DNA of 64,000 nt from Candidatus Sulfotelmatobacter sp. (lineage in GTDB: Bacteria > Acidobacteriota > Terriglobia > Terriglobales > Acidobacteriaceae), in contig JBAPPL010000028.1 in the NCBI GenBank assembly GCA_049280095.1, positions 260,362 to 324,361 on the forward strand, read 5' to 3'. The position numbers and the translations under genes are program-made. The notes beneath the pieces were generated by a model that was given only the letters and a program-made list of their open reading frames with translations, did no database searches and was not told where the DNA came from. Below, one piece after another: positions 56,642-63,726 of this stretch (positions within the stretch are counted from its first letter, which is position 1; each line of letters opens with the position of its first letter).

Positions 56642-57409
56642 TCACTTCGGGGCGTTGCGCGAAATTTCCCACGCCTTGGCATATTTCCACGAGACGTAGC
56701 CAGCGTGGTAGAGGTGCAGCAGCAGGCCTTCGCGGCCGTCGAGGAAGCCGAGTCGGCAGAAGTAGTTGTAGGTGAACGTCGCCAGCGGCCGCAGAACGAT
56801 GTTGATGAAACTGAAGCCGCTGTGACCCTTGGCGATCGCCAACTGCGCGCCCAGCGAGGAATAACGGTTCATGTGGGCGAGATAGAGAGTGAGTGTGGGG
56901 TAGGTGTAGTGAATGAGCGCGTTCTTGAATTGGACGATCGTTTGGCGAACTTCTGGTTTCAGTTCGCAACGGTCGTGCGGGTCATGGCCGGTCACAAATC
57001 CCTGCCCACGCCTGAACAACCGCAGCTTAGGATCAGGGTAGAAACCGCCGTGGCGAATCCATCGCCCAAGAAACAGATTCTTGCGTGGGAGTTTGTAGCC
57101 GATGGCAGCGTTCGGGTTTGCGATGGCAGCGCGAATCTCTCCGGCTAGGCCCGGACTTACCTCCTCGTCCGCATCCAGCAGCAGCACCCAATCCTTGGTG
57201 CACAGCTCGATCGCATACTGTTTCTGCGCCACGTAGCCGCGCCACGCTTCCAGCACGGTGCGGGCTCCGTGCTCCCGCGCGATCTCGCAGGTGCGATCCT
57301 TCGAGCCAGAATCGACGAGCACGATCTCATCGGCCCAGCGCACGCTGGCTAGCGTGCGGCCGATATTCGCCTCTTCGTCCATCGCCACTATGGCCACGGA
57401 GATTGTCAT
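56642..57409 (-). CDS. family 2 glycosyltransferase
   Basis: ISVAIVAMDEEANIGRTLASVRWADEIVLVDSGSKDRT and LLLDADE. Confidence 0.85.
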   Translation of the reverse strand: MTISVAIVAMDEEANIGRTLASVRWADEIVLVDSGSKDRTCEIAREHGARTVLEAWRGYVAQKQYAIELCTKDWVLLLDADEEVSPGLAGEIRAAIANPNAAIGYKLPRKNLFLGRWIRHGGFYPDPKLRLFRRGQGFVTGHDPHDRCELKPEVRQTIVQFKNALIHYTYPTLTLYLAHMNRYSSLGAQLAIAKGHSGFSFINIVLRPLATFTYNYFCRLGFLDGREGLLLHLYHAGYVSWKYAKAWEISRNAPK

Positions 57410-57413
57410 AGGG

Positions 57414-57512
57414 GAATTGCTGATTGCTAATTGTTGATTGCTGATTGCAACCCAGAGTCGATCAGCTTTTCAATCATCAATCATCAATCATCAATCATCA
57501 ATCATCAATCAT
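57414..57512. repeat. two heptamer arrays, (TGATTGC)x5 and (CAATCAT)x6, in near-inverted orientation
   Basis: 57414-57448 reads gaattgc tgattgc taattgt tgattgc tgattgc. 57471-57512 holds six perfect caatcat units. The arrays are reverse complements except for one position per unit. Confidence 0.9.
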
Positions 57513-58827: not shown

Positions 58828-60936
58828 CTAGAGTTGGCCTCCCGACGACGGCGGCGACTGTGCCGGCTGCCCCGCTGGCGTTGCATCCTGCCGCGGCACC
58901 ACGTAAGGGACCTTAGGTAGGTGCGTGACCTGGCCGCGCGTGGCGTCGGCGACGTTGATGCCGGTATGGTCGAGCAGCAATCCCGTGGCGCGATCCAGTT
59001 CGATGCGCGACTTCTCATAGGCCGCCTTGGCGGAGACCAGATTCGACTCGCTGGTAGTGAGGATCGAGGCATCCTGCAGGATCGCCGTGGTGGTGGTGAG
59101 TCCGACTTTCAACTTTTGTTGATCGGCGTCGAGAGTCTGGCGCGCAAAGTCGACCGCATACTGCGCCGCCTGCACTGCGGCACGGTTCTGCTTCACATCG
59201 AACTGGGCGTTGCGCACTTCGATGCGTATTTGATTTTCCAGTTGGTGCAGTCGCACCTGCGCCTGGCGGTATTCGAGTTCCGCGCGCACCTGGTTGGCCT
59301 GCGCTTCCCGATTGCGCAGCGGGATCGAAAGGCTGAGGCCAATACCCTTGTCAGGCGCGGTCGAGTTAAAAAGCTGATTCAGGGTTCCACCGTAGCTGAC
59401 GGGACCGCCGTTGGCAAAGGGAGGCGGCGCGGTTGACTCGCTAAAGCAGGTTGAGGGGGCAGCACAAGTCGGTGGCAACAGCGCCGGATTGACATTCCCT
59501 CCAACCCCAGATCCGCCGTAATAAGCGTAGGCATCGAGCGTGGGAAGCATCGCGTTGCGCACGGCTTTGCTGCTGAGGTCGCGGGAATTGAGATCAATGC
59601 GCGATTCGACCAGTTCAGCACGATGGTCGAGAGCCTGATTGATGAGGTCTTGAATGGGAACCACCGCTTCTTCCTGCGGAACCTGCATGCCGGAGGTGGG
59701 AATCACGTCAGCTTCCGCCAGCACAGGATCGTCGATGCTGCGGCTGAGCGCATTCTTCATCAACAGCTTTTGCAGTTCCAGATTGTTCTGCGCCAGAATC
59801 AGGTTCTGCTCGTCCGTCGAAACCGTGCTCTGCGCGCTCACCACCTGAATCGGCGGCACGGTGCCCACTTGCGCCTGCTGCTTGGTATCGGTCAGCGCCT
59901 TCTGCGCATAGGTAAGAGCTTCCTGTTGCACGCGCACGTTCTCGTAGGCATACACCAAGTCCCAATACATGTCTTCAATTTGATCGACGGTAGTGATGAT
60001 TTGCAGACGGAAGGCGACGTCGGAGATCTCCCGATTATTCTTGGCAATCCGAATAAAGCGGAGATTGGGAAGTGAACCGAAACCCTGCAACAAGTTTTGC
60101 GTGATCCTGAACTGGAAATTCGAACTCAGTTCTGGAGTCAGCAAGCTGGTTGGGTTGTTGGTGGTGATATGGCTGTTGTTGAATCCGGCGGCAATGCTCG
60201 TACCCCACTGAAAGCCTTGCGTGTAGGCGAAGCCGGCCGTATAGGTGTTCTGTCCCACGACCGGGACCGGACTGAAAACGCTGACCGATTCGGTGTCGTT
60301 CTTATCGAGTTGCAGCGTGCTGGTGACGATGGGATCGAAGCTGGCGATGGGTGACCCAATGCCAAGCGTGGAACTAACCAAGCCGTTGGTGCCGGTGCCC
60401 ACGCCGCTGGGCGCTACGGTAGTGCCTCCAGTGCCGGAACCCACTGTGCCGCCGAGGCCGCCCACGCCGCCGCCCGGAGTGTTCTGCACGATGCCGGCAT
60501 TCACGCCGAGAATATTGGCGCCTGACTTGGCCCGCAAGTAATCGGTGTCTGCGATATTGAGGTTGTAGCGGGCAATATCGATATCGAGATTATTTTCCAG
60601 GGCGAGTGCTACGGCGTCGTCAATCGAAAGATAAATCTTGCCATCGCGCATCAGCGAATCGATGCGCGGCGAGTTGCCAAGATTCGGCTCTGCCACCTGC
60701 TGCGGCTCGTAAGGCTGCAGGAAATGAGGAAAGGCCGAGCGCGGGTTCGAGTAATCCTGCAGGTGAACCGTCTGCGGCTGGGCGGCGGTTGGCGCGGCCT
60801 GCGGCGTTGGAGCGGCGGGAACATCCTGCGCGCGCAGGCACGGCTGCAGCTGCAGACAGGCCAAAAAGGCAGAGGCCGCCACTAACAGGGTTGGCCGCGG
60901 GTGGGCTGCCGTCATTCGGGGCAGAAGCAAGAGCAT
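58828..60936 (-). CDS. TolC-family outer membrane factor, enlarged paralog 1
   Basis: ATG 60936 lies 7 nt after AAGGAG. Signal peptide. Two OEP-type repeats (LSIDDAVALALENNLDIDIARYN..., RAELEYRQAQVRL...). About 60% identical by eye to 61157-63274. Confidence 0.8.
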   Translation of the reverse strand: MLLLLPRMTAAHPRPTLLVAASAFLACLQLQPCLRAQDVPAAPTPQAAPTAAQPQTVHLQDYSNPRSAFPHFLQPYEPQQVAEPNLGNSPRIDSLMRDGKIYLSIDDAVALALENNLDIDIARYNLNIADTDYLRAKSGANILGVNAGIVQNTPGGGVGGLGGTVGSGTGGTTVAPSGVGTGTNGLVSSTLGIGSPIASFDPIVTSTLQLDKNDTESVSVFSPVPVVGQNTYTAGFAYTQGFQWGTSIAAGFNNSHITTNNPTSLLTPELSSNFQFRITQNLLQGFGSLPNLRFIRIAKNNREISDVAFRLQIITTVDQIEDMYWDLVYAYENVRVQQEALTYAQKALTDTKQQAQVGTVPPIQVVSAQSTVSTDEQNLILAQNNLELQKLLMKNALSRSIDDPVLAEADVIPTSGMQVPQEEAVVPIQDLINQALDHRAELVESRIDLNSRDLSSKAVRNAMLPTLDAYAYYGGSGVGGNVNPALLPPTCAAPSTCFSESTAPPPFANGGPVSYGGTLNQLFNSTAPDKGIGLSLSIPLRNREAQANQVRAELEYRQAQVRLHQLENQIRIEVRNAQFDVKQNRAAVQAAQYAVDFARQTLDADQQKLKVGLTTTTAILQDASILTTSESNLVSAKAAYEKSRIELDRATGLLLDHTGINVADATRGQVTHLPKVPYVVPRQDATPAGQPAQSPPSSGGQL

Positions 60937-61098
60937 GGGTCGTCTCCTTGAGTCAACACGGTCGTGCATCGTGTTAAAACGACAAATATAGATTTCCAGA
61001 GTTGAATGCGGAAAACATAAGAGCGTCACTCCATCTTAGCGGGACGGAGTGGAGGAATTGAGCGCGGGTCGCAAAGAATATTGTAAAGAATTGTGAGT

Positions 61099-61141
61099 AA
61101 GAAAAATAAGGCGCGGCCTCGTGCGAGGACGAACCGCGCCT
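61099..61141 (-). terminator. intrinsic terminator between the two TolC-like genes
   Basis: 8-bp outer stem AGGCGCGG/CCGCGCCT with an inner CCTCG/CGAGG stem. Followed on the minus strand by TATTTTTCT. Confidence 0.65.
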
Positions 61142-61156
61142 GTTTTGCTCGCGACG

Positions 61157-63274
61157 TTATTGCGGCTGCTGCGCAGGCGCTGCCTGCGGCAAGGGCTGGG
61201 CCACGGACGGCATATCCTTGCGCGGTGCGATGTAAGGCACACTCGGCATGCGGGTGACTTGACCTTTTGCTGCATCGTCAACGCTGATTCCGTCATGATC
61301 GAGCAGCGTGCCGGTGGCGCGGTCCAGTTCAATGCGCGACTTTTCGTAGGCCACCGTGGCATTCACCAGGCCCGATTCTGCCGTAGCCAACTGGCTCTGG
61401 TACTGCAGAACCAGCGTTGTGGTCGAGGTTCCAAACTGATATTTCTTCTGCTCGGCGTCGAGCGACTGCCGTGCTAGTTCCACGGCAGCTTGGGCGGAAT
61501 CCACGCTGGCGCGGTTTTGCTGTACGGCGTATTGCGCGTTGCGGATCTCGATCCCCACCTGATTCTCGATCTGCTGCAGCCGCATCTGAGCCTGCCGGTA
61601 TTCCAGTTCCGAGCGAATCTGCACGGCCTGCGCGGCGCGGTTGCGCAGCGGGATGTTCAGTTGCAAGCCGACACCCTTATCAGGCGAGGTAGAGTTAACG
61701 AGCTGGTTCAGCGTACTGCCAAGGCCAGTCGGGGAAGCTGTGAAGTCCAGTCCGCTGGGACCGCCGGTAGGGCTGGCGCAACCGAGGGCGTCCTGGATCG
61801 GAGTTGGATTGGGGGTGGCGCAAAGGTCAGCTGGGTTTTGCGTACCGCCCAGTCCGGCGCCACCGTAGTAGGCGAAAGCATTCAGCGTAGGCAGCAGGGC
61901 GCTGCGCACCGCCTTATTGCTCAGGTCGCGGCTGTTCAGGTCGATGCGCGACTCCACTAGTTCGGCGCGATGCCGCAACGCGTCATTAATCAAGTCCTCG
62001 GTGGGCACAACTTCCTCGTGCGCCGGAATTTCCATGGTGGAAGTAGGGATGACTTCGGAGGTGGCGAGGGTCGGATCCTTAAGAGTGCGCGTGAGCGCGT
62101 TCTTCATCAGCAATTGTTCCAACTGGAGGTTAGTCTGCGCCAGGGTAACCAGTTGTTGGTCCTGCGCTACGGTGCTCTGCGCGCGCACCGTTTCGATCGG
62201 AGCCAGGCTGCCGATCTCGACCTGCTTCTTGGTGTCGGACAAGGTTTTCTGCGCGAAGGCTAAGGACTCATTCTGCACGCGGGCGTTTTCGTAGGCGTAG
62301 ACCAGGTCCCAGTAGATGTTTTCAATCTGGTCGACAGAGTCAATGATCTGCAACCGGAAAGCTACATCTGTCAGTTCGCGATTGTTTTTGGCGATGCGAA
62401 TGAAACGAGTATTGGCAGGAAATCCAAAACCCTGCAGCAACGGCTGAGTGATCGTCATTTTAAAGTTTGAGTTGAGCTGAGGGCTTAAAGAAGAAAAAAA
62501 ACTGTTTGTGGTCTGCCGGTTATTGTTGAACGACACATTCAAATTCGTGCCCCATTGAAACGCCTGGTTGTAGGCGAAATTAACCGTGCCGGTGTTCTGA
62601 ATCAGGCTGCTGCCGGGAAGTACACCTTGAAAAATAGAACTCGCCTGCTGGCTGAAATGGTCTTCCTGCAACGTGCCGGTGATGACTGGATCAAAGCTCG
62701 TGATGTTCGGTCCAAGGCCGAGAGTCGAACTGACCAAGCCGTTGGTGCCGGCGCCGATGCCGCCTGCTCCCAGGCTGGTGCCGCCGGTAGAAGCTCCGGC
62801 AGTCGCGCCGATGCCGCCGACGCCGCCGCCCGGAGTGTTCTGCACAACTCCTGCATTGACGCCGAGGATGCTGGCTCCCGCTTTCGCGCGCAGCACGTCG
62901 GTGTCAGCTATGTTCAGGTTGTAACGCGCGATGGCGATATCCAGATTATTCTCCAGCGCTAGGGCAATGGCGTCGTTGAGTGAAAGATACAGCTTGCCAT
63001 CGTGCATGAACTGGTCAATGCGTGCCGTATTGGCCAGATTTGGATCGGCCAGATGCCGCGCTTCGTAGGGCGCAATCGGGTTGGGAAAATGCGATACCGC
63101 ATGGGAATAATTCATCACGGGAAGCGGACGCGCCTCGGGCGTGTTCTGCGGAGTGGGCGCAGCGGGCGGCTCCTGCGCCCAAGCTGTGACGGCGCAACCT
63201 GCGAGCGTCAGTGTTCCCAATAAAACCGCGGCCATGGTCAGCCGGATATTTGAGGTTAAGCGTGCGAATGGCAT
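61157..63274 (-). CDS. TolC-family outer membrane factor, enlarged paralog 2
   Basis: Signal peptide with LTLAGC. Same domain order and the same Gly-rich and Cys-pair inserts as paralog 1. Confidence 0.8.
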   Translation of the reverse strand: MPFARLTSNIRLTMAAVLLGTLTLAGCAVTAWAQEPPAAPTPQNTPEARPLPVMNYSHAVSHFPNPIAPYEARHLADPNLANTARIDQFMHDGKLYLSLNDAIALALENNLDIAIARYNLNIADTDVLRAKAGASILGVNAGVVQNTPGGGVGGIGATAGASTGGTSLGAGGIGAGTNGLVSSTLGLGPNITSFDPVITGTLQEDHFSQQASSIFQGVLPGSSLIQNTGTVNFAYNQAFQWGTNLNVSFNNNRQTTNSFFSSLSPQLNSNFKMTITQPLLQGFGFPANTRFIRIAKNNRELTDVAFRLQIIDSVDQIENIYWDLVYAYENARVQNESLAFAQKTLSDTKKQVEIGSLAPIETVRAQSTVAQDQQLVTLAQTNLQLEQLLMKNALTRTLKDPTLATSEVIPTSTMEIPAHEEVVPTEDLINDALRHRAELVESRIDLNSRDLSNKAVRSALLPTLNAFAYYGGAGLGGTQNPADLCATPNPTPIQDALGCASPTGGPSGLDFTASPTGLGSTLNQLVNSTSPDKGVGLQLNIPLRNRAAQAVQIRSELEYRQAQMRLQQIENQVGIEIRNAQYAVQQNRASVDSAQAAVELARQSLDAEQKKYQFGTSTTTLVLQYQSQLATAESGLVNATVAYEKSRIELDRATGTLLDHDGISVDDAAKGQVTRMPSVPYIAPRKDMPSVAQPLPQAAPAQQPQ

Positions 63275-63290
63275 CTACTCATCTCCGTTT

Positions 63291-63343
63291 GTAAGGACCG
63301 ATTCGTTAAGACCGATTTGTTAGGACAGTTGGTTAAGACCTTG
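63291..63343. promoter_or_regulatory. four tandem 13-14 bp repeats (GTTAAGACCGATT-like) upstream of TolC paralog 2
   Basis: Units are gtaaggaccgattc, gttaagaccgattt, gttaggacagttg and gttaagaccttg. They start 17 nt upstream of the start codon (minus strand). Confidence 0.55.
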
Positions 63344-63726
63344 CAACATGAAACTTGGTTGTACGTGAGACAACCCGGATTCACCCAAAATGGCGGTTCT
63401 ACTCAATTGCAGTTCCACTCAATCCTTGATACGCAAGCAGCGGCGCCCCGGTTCCTGAAAATATCTTTCGAAGAGCCCTCGGAAAAATCTCCCGAAACGC
63501 CCTAAATAAACGCGAACCTAGTTAAACGCACCAGTATATCTGACCCCGCCGCCTCTCTTTCGAGTTCTCCGGGAGGTGAAACTGATAAAGTGCTGGCGAT
63601 GGCCGAGCGACTCTCCGTAGAGCGAAATCATAGTTGCGTGAACCTGTCCCATGAAATGACTTGGATGAACCAGCGCGGCTGTAGGACTCGCGGCTGCAAG
63701 GCTTAGGGTCAGACTTATAAGATCGC

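What the first reader, a model, noticed from the sequence alone, without database searches (positions are those of the whole stretch)
58828..63274. Tandem pair of oversized TolC-like outer-membrane factors with Gly-rich and Cys-pair insertions and no pump partners
Seen: two paralogs of about 700 aa have the same architecture and are separated by a terminator (61099-61141). Typical TolC-family proteins are roughly 450-500 aa. Both carry a Gly-rich stretch (NTPGGGVGG...GTNGLVSS, DNA about 60370-60490 and 62730-62850) followed by extra beta-rich sequence. Both also carry a second insert with two cysteines (TCAAPSTC and LCATPNPTPIQDALGC). No MFP, RND or ABC genes are adjacent. The downstream same-strand genes are a GT39-like gene and a GT2 gene. 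Inference: the inserts fall where the barrel and extracellular loops are expected, so the surface cap would be enlarged and possibly disulfide-stapled. The pairing with glycosyltransferases hints at a role beyond drug efflux.
Basis: partly seen in the sequence, partly recalled or inferred. Interest (0 to 1): 0.6.

Follow-up and report, generated by a model that had tools for sequence, protein, structure and literature searches.

The report
Long TolC-type channel pair, acidobacterial variant
Two neighbouring genes of a soil acidobacterium encode outer-membrane exit channels of the TolC family that belong to a lineage-wide, undescribed long variant, predicted to have six membrane strands per subunit instead of four, and that most likely serve the genome's many pumps that lack a channel gene of their own.

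Summary
Two minus-strand genes, A (61157-63274, 705 aa) and B (58828-60936, 702 aa), are 60% identical TolC/OEP-family paralogs separated by a terminator hairpin. The genome's ten other OEP genes encode 431-515 aa.

- **Not a local oddity.** More than 8000 close homologs exist. The tandem pair stems from one old duplication kept in 43 of 69 Terriglobales loci.
- **Extra beta sequence.** It is a beta-hairpin inserted between strands S1 and S2. It occurs across an Acidobacteriota-wide clade (246 of 301 genomes). AlphaFold2 predicts six strands per protomer, and all six show lipid-facing hydrophobic alternation. An 18-stranded trimer barrel is my inference.
- **Gly-rich stretch.** It is limited to Terriglobia-type members and strongly conserved there. 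It lies at the periplasmic base of the barrel, not on the surface, and is modelled as disordered.
- **Cys pair.** It lies in the S4-S5 surface loop and occurs as two or none, never one.
- **Pump partners.** Distant clade members sit in operons with adaptor plus MacB-type ABC or RND genes. This genome has seven adaptor-containing pump modules without a channel gene.
- **Glycosyltransferases.** The linkage is only local synteny.

Most likely these are shared exit ducts, a new structural variant of a known family.

The parts
61157..63274 (-). TolC-family outer-membrane factor, paralog A (705 aa), upstream copy
   Evidence: ORF. Pfam OEP E 3.7e-41. AF2 model with the TolC fold.
58828..60936 (-). 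TolC-family outer-membrane factor, paralog B (702 aa from the ATG at 60936; an alternative GTG start is at 61029)
   Evidence: ORF. AAGGAGA lies before the ATG. Pfam OEP E 3.9e-45. It is 60% identical to A.
61100..61141 (-). Intrinsic-terminator-like hairpin with a U-run between A and B
   Evidence: -22.8 kcal/mol, z -2.67.
62693..62878 (-). Gly-rich, uncharged insert of A (residues 133-194) at the junction of helix H2 and strand S1
   Evidence: About 31 of 62 positions are at least 90% conserved in 99 relatives. pLDDT is below 50.
60337..60522 (-). Gly-rich insert of B (residues 139-200)
   Evidence: It is 71% identical to the insert of A.
62435..62692 (-). Four-strand segment of repeat 1 in A (residues 195-280). 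S1, the extra hairpin Sx1/Sx2 (residues 223-256, 62507-62608) and S2.
   Evidence: AF2 strands 197-210, 223-238, 244-256 and 267-280. The hairpin is absent from the ten canonical OEPs. Hydrophobic alternation is seen in all strands.
60088..60336 (-). Four-strand segment of repeat 1 in B (residues 201-283). The extra hairpin is residues 226-259, 60160-60261.
   Evidence: Alignment with A.
61682..61846 (-). Enlarged S4-S5 surface loop of A (residues 477-531) with C485 and C499
59353..59499 (-). Enlarged S4-S5 surface loop of B (residues 480-528) with C491 and C497
57523..58779 (-). PMT_2-family (GT-C, GT39/ArnT-like) membrane glycosyltransferase, 48 nt downstream of B. It is a neighbour and is not shown to belong to the system.
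   Evidence: Pfam PF13231 E 2.6e-11. No terminator-like fold lies in the gap. It is present in 21 of 69 related loci.
56642..57409 (-). GT2 glycosyltransferase (255 aa). It is a neighbour and is not shown to belong to the system.
   Evidence: Pfam PF00535 E 4.7e-19. It is present in 61 of 69 related loci.

Best explanation
A and B are two paralogous outer-membrane factors (TolC/OEP family) of a Terriglobales acidobacterium related to Candidatus Sulfotelmatobacter.

**What each protein is.** Each is exported by an N-terminal signal peptide. Each is expected to trimerise into an alpha-barrel/beta-barrel exit duct.

**How they most likely work.** They act as shared channels encoded apart from their pumps, as E. 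coli TolC and Anabaena HgdD do. They would dock onto the periplasmic adaptor proteins of inner-membrane ABC (MacB-type) and RND pumps that are encoded elsewhere in the genome without a channel gene.

**Structural variant.**
- They belong to an Acidobacteriota-wide clade whose first structural repeat carries an extra beta-hairpin between S1 and S2. Each protomer is therefore predicted to give six membrane strands. An 18-stranded trimer barrel instead of 12 strands is my inference.
- Terriglobia-type members also have a roughly 60-residue uncharged Gly-rich loop at the periplasmic base of the barrel. Its role is unknown. My guess is a collar at the inner leaflet or a lumen-lining element.
- They also have a longer S4-S5 surface loop held by a disulfide.

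**The duplication.** The tandem pair comes from one old duplication. The copies have diverged mainly in the predicted surface loops. This fits diversification of the exposed face, for example under phage or bacteriocin pressure, or some division of labour among pumps.

**Shown and inferred.** Shown: family membership, fold, size, distribution, duplication history, cysteine pairing, and the presence of orphan pumps. Inferred: the 18-strand barrel, the disulfide, the location and role of the Gly-rich loop, and which pumps are served.
For: **Family and fold**
- Pfam OEP matches both proteins.
- A profile search of solved structures hits E. coli TolC at E 8e-15.
- The AF2 model matches TolC, ST50, CmeC, OprM and CusC with Foldseek probability 1.0 and target-normalised TM-score 0.64-0.80.

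**Lineage trait**
- All 8000 scored candidates were hits; the best 120 listed are 630-737 aa, mostly about 700.
- 1319 clusters at 50% identity match at E <= 1e-30.
- 246 of 301 Acidobacteriota genomes have a match at E <= 1e-30, a level that the genome's own canonical OEPs do not reach.

**Extra hairpin**
- It is present in all clade members aligned and absent from the ten canonical OEPs of the genome.
- AF2 predicts four strands in repeat 1 of A (pLDDT 64-86). It predicts the same, independently, in a 543-aa distant member (pLDDT 82-91).
- All six strands show alternating hydrophobic positions across 36 diverse sequences.

**Pump partners**
- The distant member P0413 lies in an OEP, adaptor, ABC, MacB operon.
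- Other distant members lie next to adaptor plus RND genes (L145, L153, L157) or adaptor plus ABC genes (L138, L147).
- The own genome has seven adaptor-containing modules with no OEP gene beside them: two with RND, two with ABC/MacB parts, three with a HlyD-type adaptor only so far. Nine of the ten canonical OEPs sit in pump operons.
- A shared, unlinked channel is the E. coli TolC and Anabaena HgdD paradigm (PMC8277102).

**Duplication and disulfide**
- Downstream copies are monophyletic with support 0.98.
- The tandem arrangement is found in 43 of 69 loci.
- A and B are 25-40% identical in the predicted surface loops and 82-91% in helices H1-H2 and H6.
- The loop cysteines occur as two or none, never one.
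Against: - No expression, localisation or interaction data could be obtained.
- The AF2 models are monomers, and I could not read their coordinates. Whether the extra hairpin sits in the barrel wall is therefore judged from the strand pattern and hydrophobicity only.
- The Gly-rich loop is conserved but unmodelled, so a gate or plug that changes the function cannot be excluded.
- Scores against the curated TolC and NodT subfamily models are far below their cut-offs: 69-70 bits against 225.
- No specific partner pump is identified. The best candidate adaptor, C28:258160-259374, matches the operon-linked adaptors of distant relatives at only 28-34% identity.
Confidence: 0.7

Rival explanations
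1. The channels are dedicated to exporting or decorating an envelope glycoconjugate (a glycolipid, LPS-related or exopolysaccharide product) made with the downstream PMT_2 and GT2 enzymes. Alternatively, their own Gly/Ser/Thr-rich periplasmic loop is glycosylated by that pair.
For: - B and PMT_2 are 48 nt apart with no terminator-like fold between them.
- GT2 lies within 6 kb downstream in 61 of 69 related loci.
- Distant clade members pair with MacB-type ABC exporters. That pump class exports glycolipids in Anabaena through DevBCA-HgdD (PMC8277102).
- TolC is needed for a GT2-dependent beta-glucan in rhizobia (PMC13438883; title and abstract only).
- In diverse relatives the loop is rich in Ser and Thr.
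Against: - The whole block is equally syntenic: truA in 76 of 80 loci, plus the mutase and AlkA-like genes. The linkage therefore carries no specific signal.
- PMT_2 is present in only 21 of 69 loci and is split in the closest relative, L123.
- No GT2 lies beside the more distant long homologs L154-L157.
- The GT2 is a small 255-aa enzyme, not a membrane synthase. Its matches are generic N-terminal GT2 matches.
Confidence: 0.12
2. The barrel stays 12-stranded. The extra hairpin, together with the long disulfide loop, forms an enlarged extracellular cap or lid over the pore.
For: - The hairpin is inserted in the position of extracellular loop 1.
- The loops flanking it and the S4-S5 loop are the fastest-evolving parts, at 25-40% identity between A and B, as expected for exposed surface.
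- All solved family members have 12 strands.
Against: - Both hairpin strands carry conserved alternating hydrophobic and aromatic positions like the certain membrane strands S2, S4 and S5. These are 231/233/235/239 and 245/247/249, at 75-100% hydrophobic.
- Strand Sx1 ends in the same pattern (hydrophobic, any, hydrophobic, any, Gln) as S2.
- The turn between the hairpin strands is 5 residues long and invariant between A and B, as is usual for a periplasmic turn.
- S1 and S2 keep their own hydrophobic faces.
Confidence: 0.3
3. A and B assemble into mixed (hetero-) trimers. The tandem pair would then encode one channel rather than two.
For: - Both copies are retained side by side in 43 of 69 loci after one old duplication.
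- The helices that form protomer contacts are well conserved between A and B, at 82-91% in H1-H2 and H6.
Against: - A strong terminator and a separate ribosome-binding site and upstream region separate the genes.
- 26 of 69 loci, and all deeper lineages, manage with one copy.
- All solved family members are homotrimers.
Confidence: 0.08

Closest known systems
E. coli TolC (PDB 1EK9 and related; outer-membrane factor family, Pfam PF02321)
   Same: - Two OEP repeats and the alpha/beta-barrel protomer fold (Foldseek probability 1.0, target-normalised TM-score about 0.74).
- The gene is not linked to the pumps it presumably serves.
- There is no N-terminal lipid anchor in most homologs.
   Different: - It is about 230 residues longer.
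- It has an extra beta-hairpin between S1 and S2, predicted to give 6 rather than 4 strands per protomer.
- It has a roughly 60-residue Gly-rich loop at the H2/S1 junction.
- It has a 49-55-residue S4-S5 loop with a Cys pair, and Pro-rich N- and C-terminal extensions.
- It scores 69-70 bits against the TIGR01844 cut-off of 225.
Anabaena HgdD (Alr2887), the single TolC homolog serving at least eight adaptor-transporter pairs, mostly MacB/ABC type
   Same: In function, it is one unlinked outer-membrane factor for many ABC-type pumps (PMC8277102). Distant members of the present clade sit in MacB-type operons.
   Different: No sequence comparison was made here, and I did not verify HgdD's own architecture. 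This is an analogy, not membership.
OprM/NodT-type lipoprotein outer-membrane factors (TIGR01845)
   Same: The fold is the same.
   Different: - They match far below the cut-off: 31-48 bits against 210.
- Homologs end their signal peptides in an Ala-x-Ala-Gln type site, not a lipobox.
- A alone has a fortuitous LAGC.
Loop-to-hairpin strand accretion in outer-membrane barrels (PorB with 16 strands to MOMP with 18; bioRxiv 10.1101/2023.06.14.544993)
   Same: An extracellular loop position holds a hairpin that would enlarge the barrel by two strands per chain.
   Different: That case concerns single-chain porins. Here the barrel is built from three chains and sits on a 12-helix tunnel. No such case is described for the TolC family in the papers I could search.

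Membership tests
Outer-membrane factor / TolC family (Pfam PF02321 OEP; TC 1.B.17) | Two tandem OEP repeats scoring above Pfam's gathering cut-off | tested here: met
   A scores 141 bits and B 154 bits against a cut-off of 22. The first repeat is split by the inserts.
Outer-membrane factor / TolC family (Pfam PF02321 OEP; TC 1.B.17) | Protomer fold with long antiparallel helices (H3/H4, H7/H8), an equatorial domain and beta strands at one end | tested here: met
   The AF2 helices are 287-354, 360-394, 546-613 and 619-654. Foldseek top hits are all TolC-family structures, with target-normalised TM-score 0.64-0.80.
Outer-membrane factor / TolC family (Pfam PF02321 OEP; TC 1.B.17) | Four beta strands per protomer, giving a 12-stranded trimer barrel | tested here: not met
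   AF2 predicts six strands per protomer in A and in a distant 543-aa relative. The extra hairpin is absent from canonical OEPs. The trimer itself was not modelled.
Outer-membrane factor / TolC family (Pfam PF02321 OEP; TC 1.B.17) | Works with a periplasmic adaptor (MFP) and an inner-membrane ABC, RND or MFS transporter | tested here: inconclusive
   None is adjacent. Clade relatives sit in operons of adaptor plus MacB/ABC or RND genes. The own genome has seven adaptor-containing modules with no channel gene beside them. No physical interaction was tested.
Outer-membrane factor / TolC family (Pfam PF02321 OEP; TC 1.B.17) | Homotrimer in the outer membrane | not testable with these tools
   Only monomer prediction is offered. 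A signal-peptide-like N-terminus is visible in the sequence.
NCBIfam TIGR01844 (type I secretion TolC subfamily) and NF007002 (TolC equivalog) | Score above the curated cut-off | tested here: not met
   They score 69-70 bits against 225, and 47-52 bits against 495.
NCBIfam TIGR01845 (NodT/OprM lipoprotein subfamily) | Score above the cut-off and an N-terminal lipobox cysteine | tested here: not met
   They score 31-48 bits against 210. Homologs lack a lipobox.

The most novel reading that the evidence does not exclude
This Acidobacteriota-wide clade of TolC-family channels builds an 18-stranded rather than a 12-stranded trimeric beta-barrel on top of the usual 12-helix tunnel. In Terriglobia it adds a conserved, uncharged Gly-rich element at the base of the barrel that acts as a collar or gate. 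This would be the first departure from the invariant 12-strand architecture of outer-membrane factors, and a natural case of loop-to-hairpin barrel enlargement in a multi-chain barrel.
Probability: 0.4. Interest if true: 0.65.

Novelty: new variant of a known kind. Interest (0 to 1): 0.45.

Why it matters
- **Architecture.** Every solved outer-membrane factor has four strands per protomer. A widespread soil-bacterial clade with six would change the textbook picture of the family. It would raise the question of how an enlarged barrel is joined to the 12-helix tunnel and how it is assembled.
- **Annotation.** It explains why many Acidobacteriota pumps have no channel gene of their own.
- **Prevalence.** Terriglobia are among the most abundant soil bacteria, so these would be among the most common exit ducts in soil.
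- **If the 18-strand inference fails.** The finding is then an ordinary lineage-specific decoration of TolC.

Tried and rejected
- **Sequencing runs.** I have no expression or co-transcription data.
- **Model coordinates.** The predicted structures cannot be read in the Python box. The hairpin's position in three dimensions could not be measured.
- **Other phyla.** A tblastn of the four-strand segment against 72,556 plasmids found nothing. This is only a weak sign that the hairpin is absent from common Proteobacteria.
- **Taxon names.** Few exist for distant clusters; one is labelled 'Terriglobia bacterium'. Spread outside Acidobacteriota is untested.
- **Literature.** Searches found no description of long, Gly-rich or six-strand TolC homologs.
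- **PG_binding_4.** The weak hit in B (E 0.0013, below the cut-off) is taken as chance.
- **Lipobox.** The LAGC in A's signal peptide is taken as fortuitous. B and most homologs lack it and end in an Ala-x-Ala-Gln type site.
- **Gly-rich motif elsewhere.** The stretch has no specific relatives in other proteins of the genome, only low-complexity matches.
- **Adjacent adaptor.** The adaptor just outside the window (C28:258160) is not followed by transporter genes.
- **Representative proteins.** Those could not be used for structure prediction. I obtained diversity instead.

Full report
**Observation**

The region holds two long minus-strand ORFs. A is 61157-63274 (705 aa). B runs from a GTG at 61029 (733 aa), but the ATG at 60936 is preceded by AAGGAGA, so B is more likely 702 aa. 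Both match Pfam OEP (PF02321) at E 4e-41 and 4e-45. They are 60% identical over 682 residues.

A 13-pair GC-rich hairpin with a U-run lies between them at 61100-61141. Its free energy is -22.8 kcal/mol, z -2.67, and no shuffle of 200 folds as well.

The Gly-rich stretches hold 20 Gly in 65 residues and one charged residue. They lie at A 133-194 and B 139-200. The only cysteines of the mature proteins are a pair in each: A C485/C499 and B C491/C497.

Downstream on the same strand lie a PMT_2-family GT-C protein and a GT2. No pump component is nearby.

**Organism and size**

Close homologs are named Candidatus Sulfotelmatobacter, Acidobacteriaceae or Terriglobales. The genome is 4.73 Mb in 57 contigs and holds twelve OEP genes. 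Ten encode 431-515 aa, and nine of those sit in operons with an adaptor gene and either an RND gene of about 1030-1100 aa or a gene of about 530 aa. Only A and B are about 700 aa and stand alone. The size is an outlier in the genome but not in the lineage:

- All 8000 scored candidates were hits; the best 120 listed are 630-737 aa, mostly about 700.
- 1319 clusters at 50% identity match at E <= 1e-30.
- 246 of 301 sampled Acidobacteriota genomes have a match at E <= 1e-30. The genome's canonical OEPs do not reach that level.

First-stage notes on four other genomes describe the same tandem pairs of about 700 aa with Gly-rich inserts.

**Anatomy**

A profile of 21 diverse long members aligns E. 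coli TolC residues 84-426 to profile positions 280-648. The extra length therefore sits mostly before helix H3.

The AF2 model of A was built from 99 sequences and has mean pLDDT 72.9. It has the TolC fold. All strong Foldseek hits are TolC, ST50, CmeC, OprM, CusC and the like, with target-normalised TM-score 0.64-0.80. The model shows these features:

- *Strands.* Repeat 1 has four strands (197-210, 223-238, 244-256, 267-280; pLDDT 64-86). Repeat 2 has two (463-477, 531-540).
- *Gly-rich stretch.* Residues 141-187 have pLDDT below 50 and no secondary structure.
- *Cys loop.* Most of it (482-512) is also below pLDDT 50.

Repeat 2 passes from helix H6 straight into S4 through the motif LLP. In repeat 1 the equivalent motif FDP (194-196, with D195 and P196 invariant) is separated from helix H2 by the Gly-rich stretch. 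The Gly-rich insert therefore starts and ends at the periplasmic base of the barrel and is not a surface loop.

Alignment with TolC's strands makes 197-210 the equivalent of S1 and 267-280 the equivalent of S2. The extra hairpin (223-256) then sits in the position of extracellular loop 1.

**The extra hairpin is an old, clade-wide feature**

Eleven distant Acidobacteriota homologs of 523-641 aa (28-35% identical) lack the Gly-rich stretch but keep the hairpin. The ten canonical OEPs of this genome have a gap there.

An independent AF2 model of one such protein, P0413 (543 aa, mean pLDDT 81.3), again gives four strands in repeat 1, at pLDDT 82-91.

Across 36 diverse sequences both hairpin strands show the alternating hydrophobic pattern of the certain membrane strands. 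Positions 231/233/235/239 and 245/247/249 are 75-100% hydrophobic. Strand Sx1 ends in the same pattern (hydrophobic, any, hydrophobic, any, Gln) as S2. S1, S2, S4 and S5 keep their own hydrophobic faces.

My inference is that all six strands line the barrel wall, giving 18 strands per trimer. By standard barrel geometry an 18-strand barrel with moderate tilt has a radius close to that of the 12-helix tunnel, so this seems sterically possible. That is my own estimate and is not computed on a model. I could not read model coordinates, and no trimer prediction is offered. This is the main untested step. The concept has a precedent in single-chain porins, the loop-to-hairpin transition (bioRxiv 10.1101/2023.06.14.544993). 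I found no description of it for TolC-family proteins.

**The Gly-rich stretch**

In the phylum scan, matches that span the Gly-rich region came almost only from the window's own family, from one further family of its class, and from two families the tool places outside the class. Within 99 Terriglobales relatives (49-92% identity) about half of its positions are at least 90% conserved. These include non-Gly residues T147, T166, V181 and S183.

Between A and B the stretch is 71% identical, against 60% overall and 25-40% in the predicted surface loops. In more distant members only the composition is kept: Gly, Ser, Thr, Ala and Asn, almost uncharged.

It is therefore constrained, not exposed to diversifying pressure, and not modelled. 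Its role is unknown. I favour a collar at the inner leaflet or neck, or a lumen-lining element.

**The Cys pair**

Among the 99 relatives, 89 have exactly two Cys in the S4-S5 loop and none elsewhere in the mature protein. Seven have none, two have a pair plus one further Cys elsewhere, and one has three in the loop. None has a single Cys in the loop. The spacing between the two varies from 5 to 17 residues. The same two-or-none rule holds in the 36 diverse sequences.

**Pump partners**

Distant clade members are encoded with pumps:

- P0413 is the first gene of an operon of OEP, a 592-aa adaptor, an ABC ATPase and a MacB-type permease.
- L145, L153 and L157 lie beside adaptor plus RND genes.
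- L138 and L147 lie beside adaptor plus ABC genes.

The own genome has seven adaptor-containing modules without an OEP gene beside them:

| Place | Content |
|---|---|
| C45:92945-100692 | adaptor plus two RND genes |
| C53:106866-111189 | adaptor plus RND gene |
| C21:53113-56367 | HlyD-type adaptor plus ABC-2 parts |
| C21:181614-187265 | HlyD-type adaptor plus MacB-type parts |
| C24:143529-149052 | HlyD-type adaptor |
| C28:64153 | HlyD-type adaptor |
| C28:258160 | HlyD-type adaptor |

The adaptors linked to clade channels in three distant genomes all find C28:258160-259374 as their best match here, at 28-34% identity. That adaptor has no transporter gene beside it.

The simplest reading is the TolC/HgdD paradigm, in which one or two unlinked channels serve many pumps (PMC8277102).

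**The duplication**

In a tree of 128 sequences from 84 loci (80 Terriglobales, 4 more distant relatives) plus A and B, the downstream (B-type) copies form one clade with support 0.98. It is nested among the upstream copies. Twenty-two single-copy lineages branch outside the duplication.

Of 69 loci with enough downstream sequence, 43 are tandem and 26 single. Independent tandem pairs also occur in other families (G269, G290, G300). A and B differ most in the predicted surface loops and in the hairpin strands.

**The glycosyltransferases**

GT2 lies within 6 kb downstream in 61 of 69 loci and PMT_2 in 21 of 69. However, truA (76 of 80 loci) and the mutase and AlkA-like genes are equally conserved in place. 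PMT_2 is split in the closest relative, L123. GT2 is absent beside the more distant long homologs L154-L157.

The GT2 gives only generic N-terminal matches. Its best solved relative is GmaR, at E 9e-9 over 90 residues. PMT_2 has no solved relative by sequence.

The 48-nt gap between B and PMT_2 has no terminator-like fold, so co-transcription is possible. A functional tie is not supported beyond that.

**Verdict**

These are members of the TolC family by sequence and fold. They most likely act as shared exit ducts.

They differ from every described member in three ways: a predicted six-strand stave, which is clade-wide; a conserved Gly-rich loop at the periplasmic base, which is Terriglobia-type; and a disulfide-stapled long surface loop. 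I file this as a new variant of a known kind, of moderate interest. The interest rests mainly on the untested 18-strand barrel.

Noticed in passing
window 63296-63340 and 63457-63503: A 14-bp unit repeated 3.3 times lies 20-65 nt upstream of A's start codon. A 24-bp unit repeated 1.9 times lies further upstream, in the divergent region shared with truA. The first array was also flagged by another first-stage note.
   Followed up: partly
window 63194-63205 (A residues 24-27, LAGC): A's signal peptide holds a lipobox-like LAGC ahead of an AWA-Q site. B and most homologs have only the Ala-x-Ala-Gln type site. It was not tested whether A is lipidated.
   Followed up: no
L123:14473-15716 (closest relative, 90% identical locus): The PMT_2 homolog matches in two overlapping pieces, as if frameshifted. 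This suggests the gene is dispensable.
   Followed up: no
L096:10001-11479: The upstream (A-type) copy matches only over its first roughly 490 residues in this relative. It is possibly a disrupted gene or an assembly problem.
   Followed up: no
genome C28:257131-258084, 2-3 kb before the window start: A 317-aa secreted protein made of repeated GSGD/GSGN units follows the orphan HlyD-type adaptor at C28:258160-259374. No transporter gene is adjacent.
   Followed up: no
proteins P0143 and P0186 (distant long homologs): Besides the loop pair they carry a second Cys pair, adjacent CC, directly before the invariant Asp-Pro at the start of S1.
   Followed up: no
window 57414-57512: The 113-nt gap between PMT_2 and GT2 was described by another agent as a hairpin of heptamer repeats. 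I did not re-examine it.
   Followed up: no
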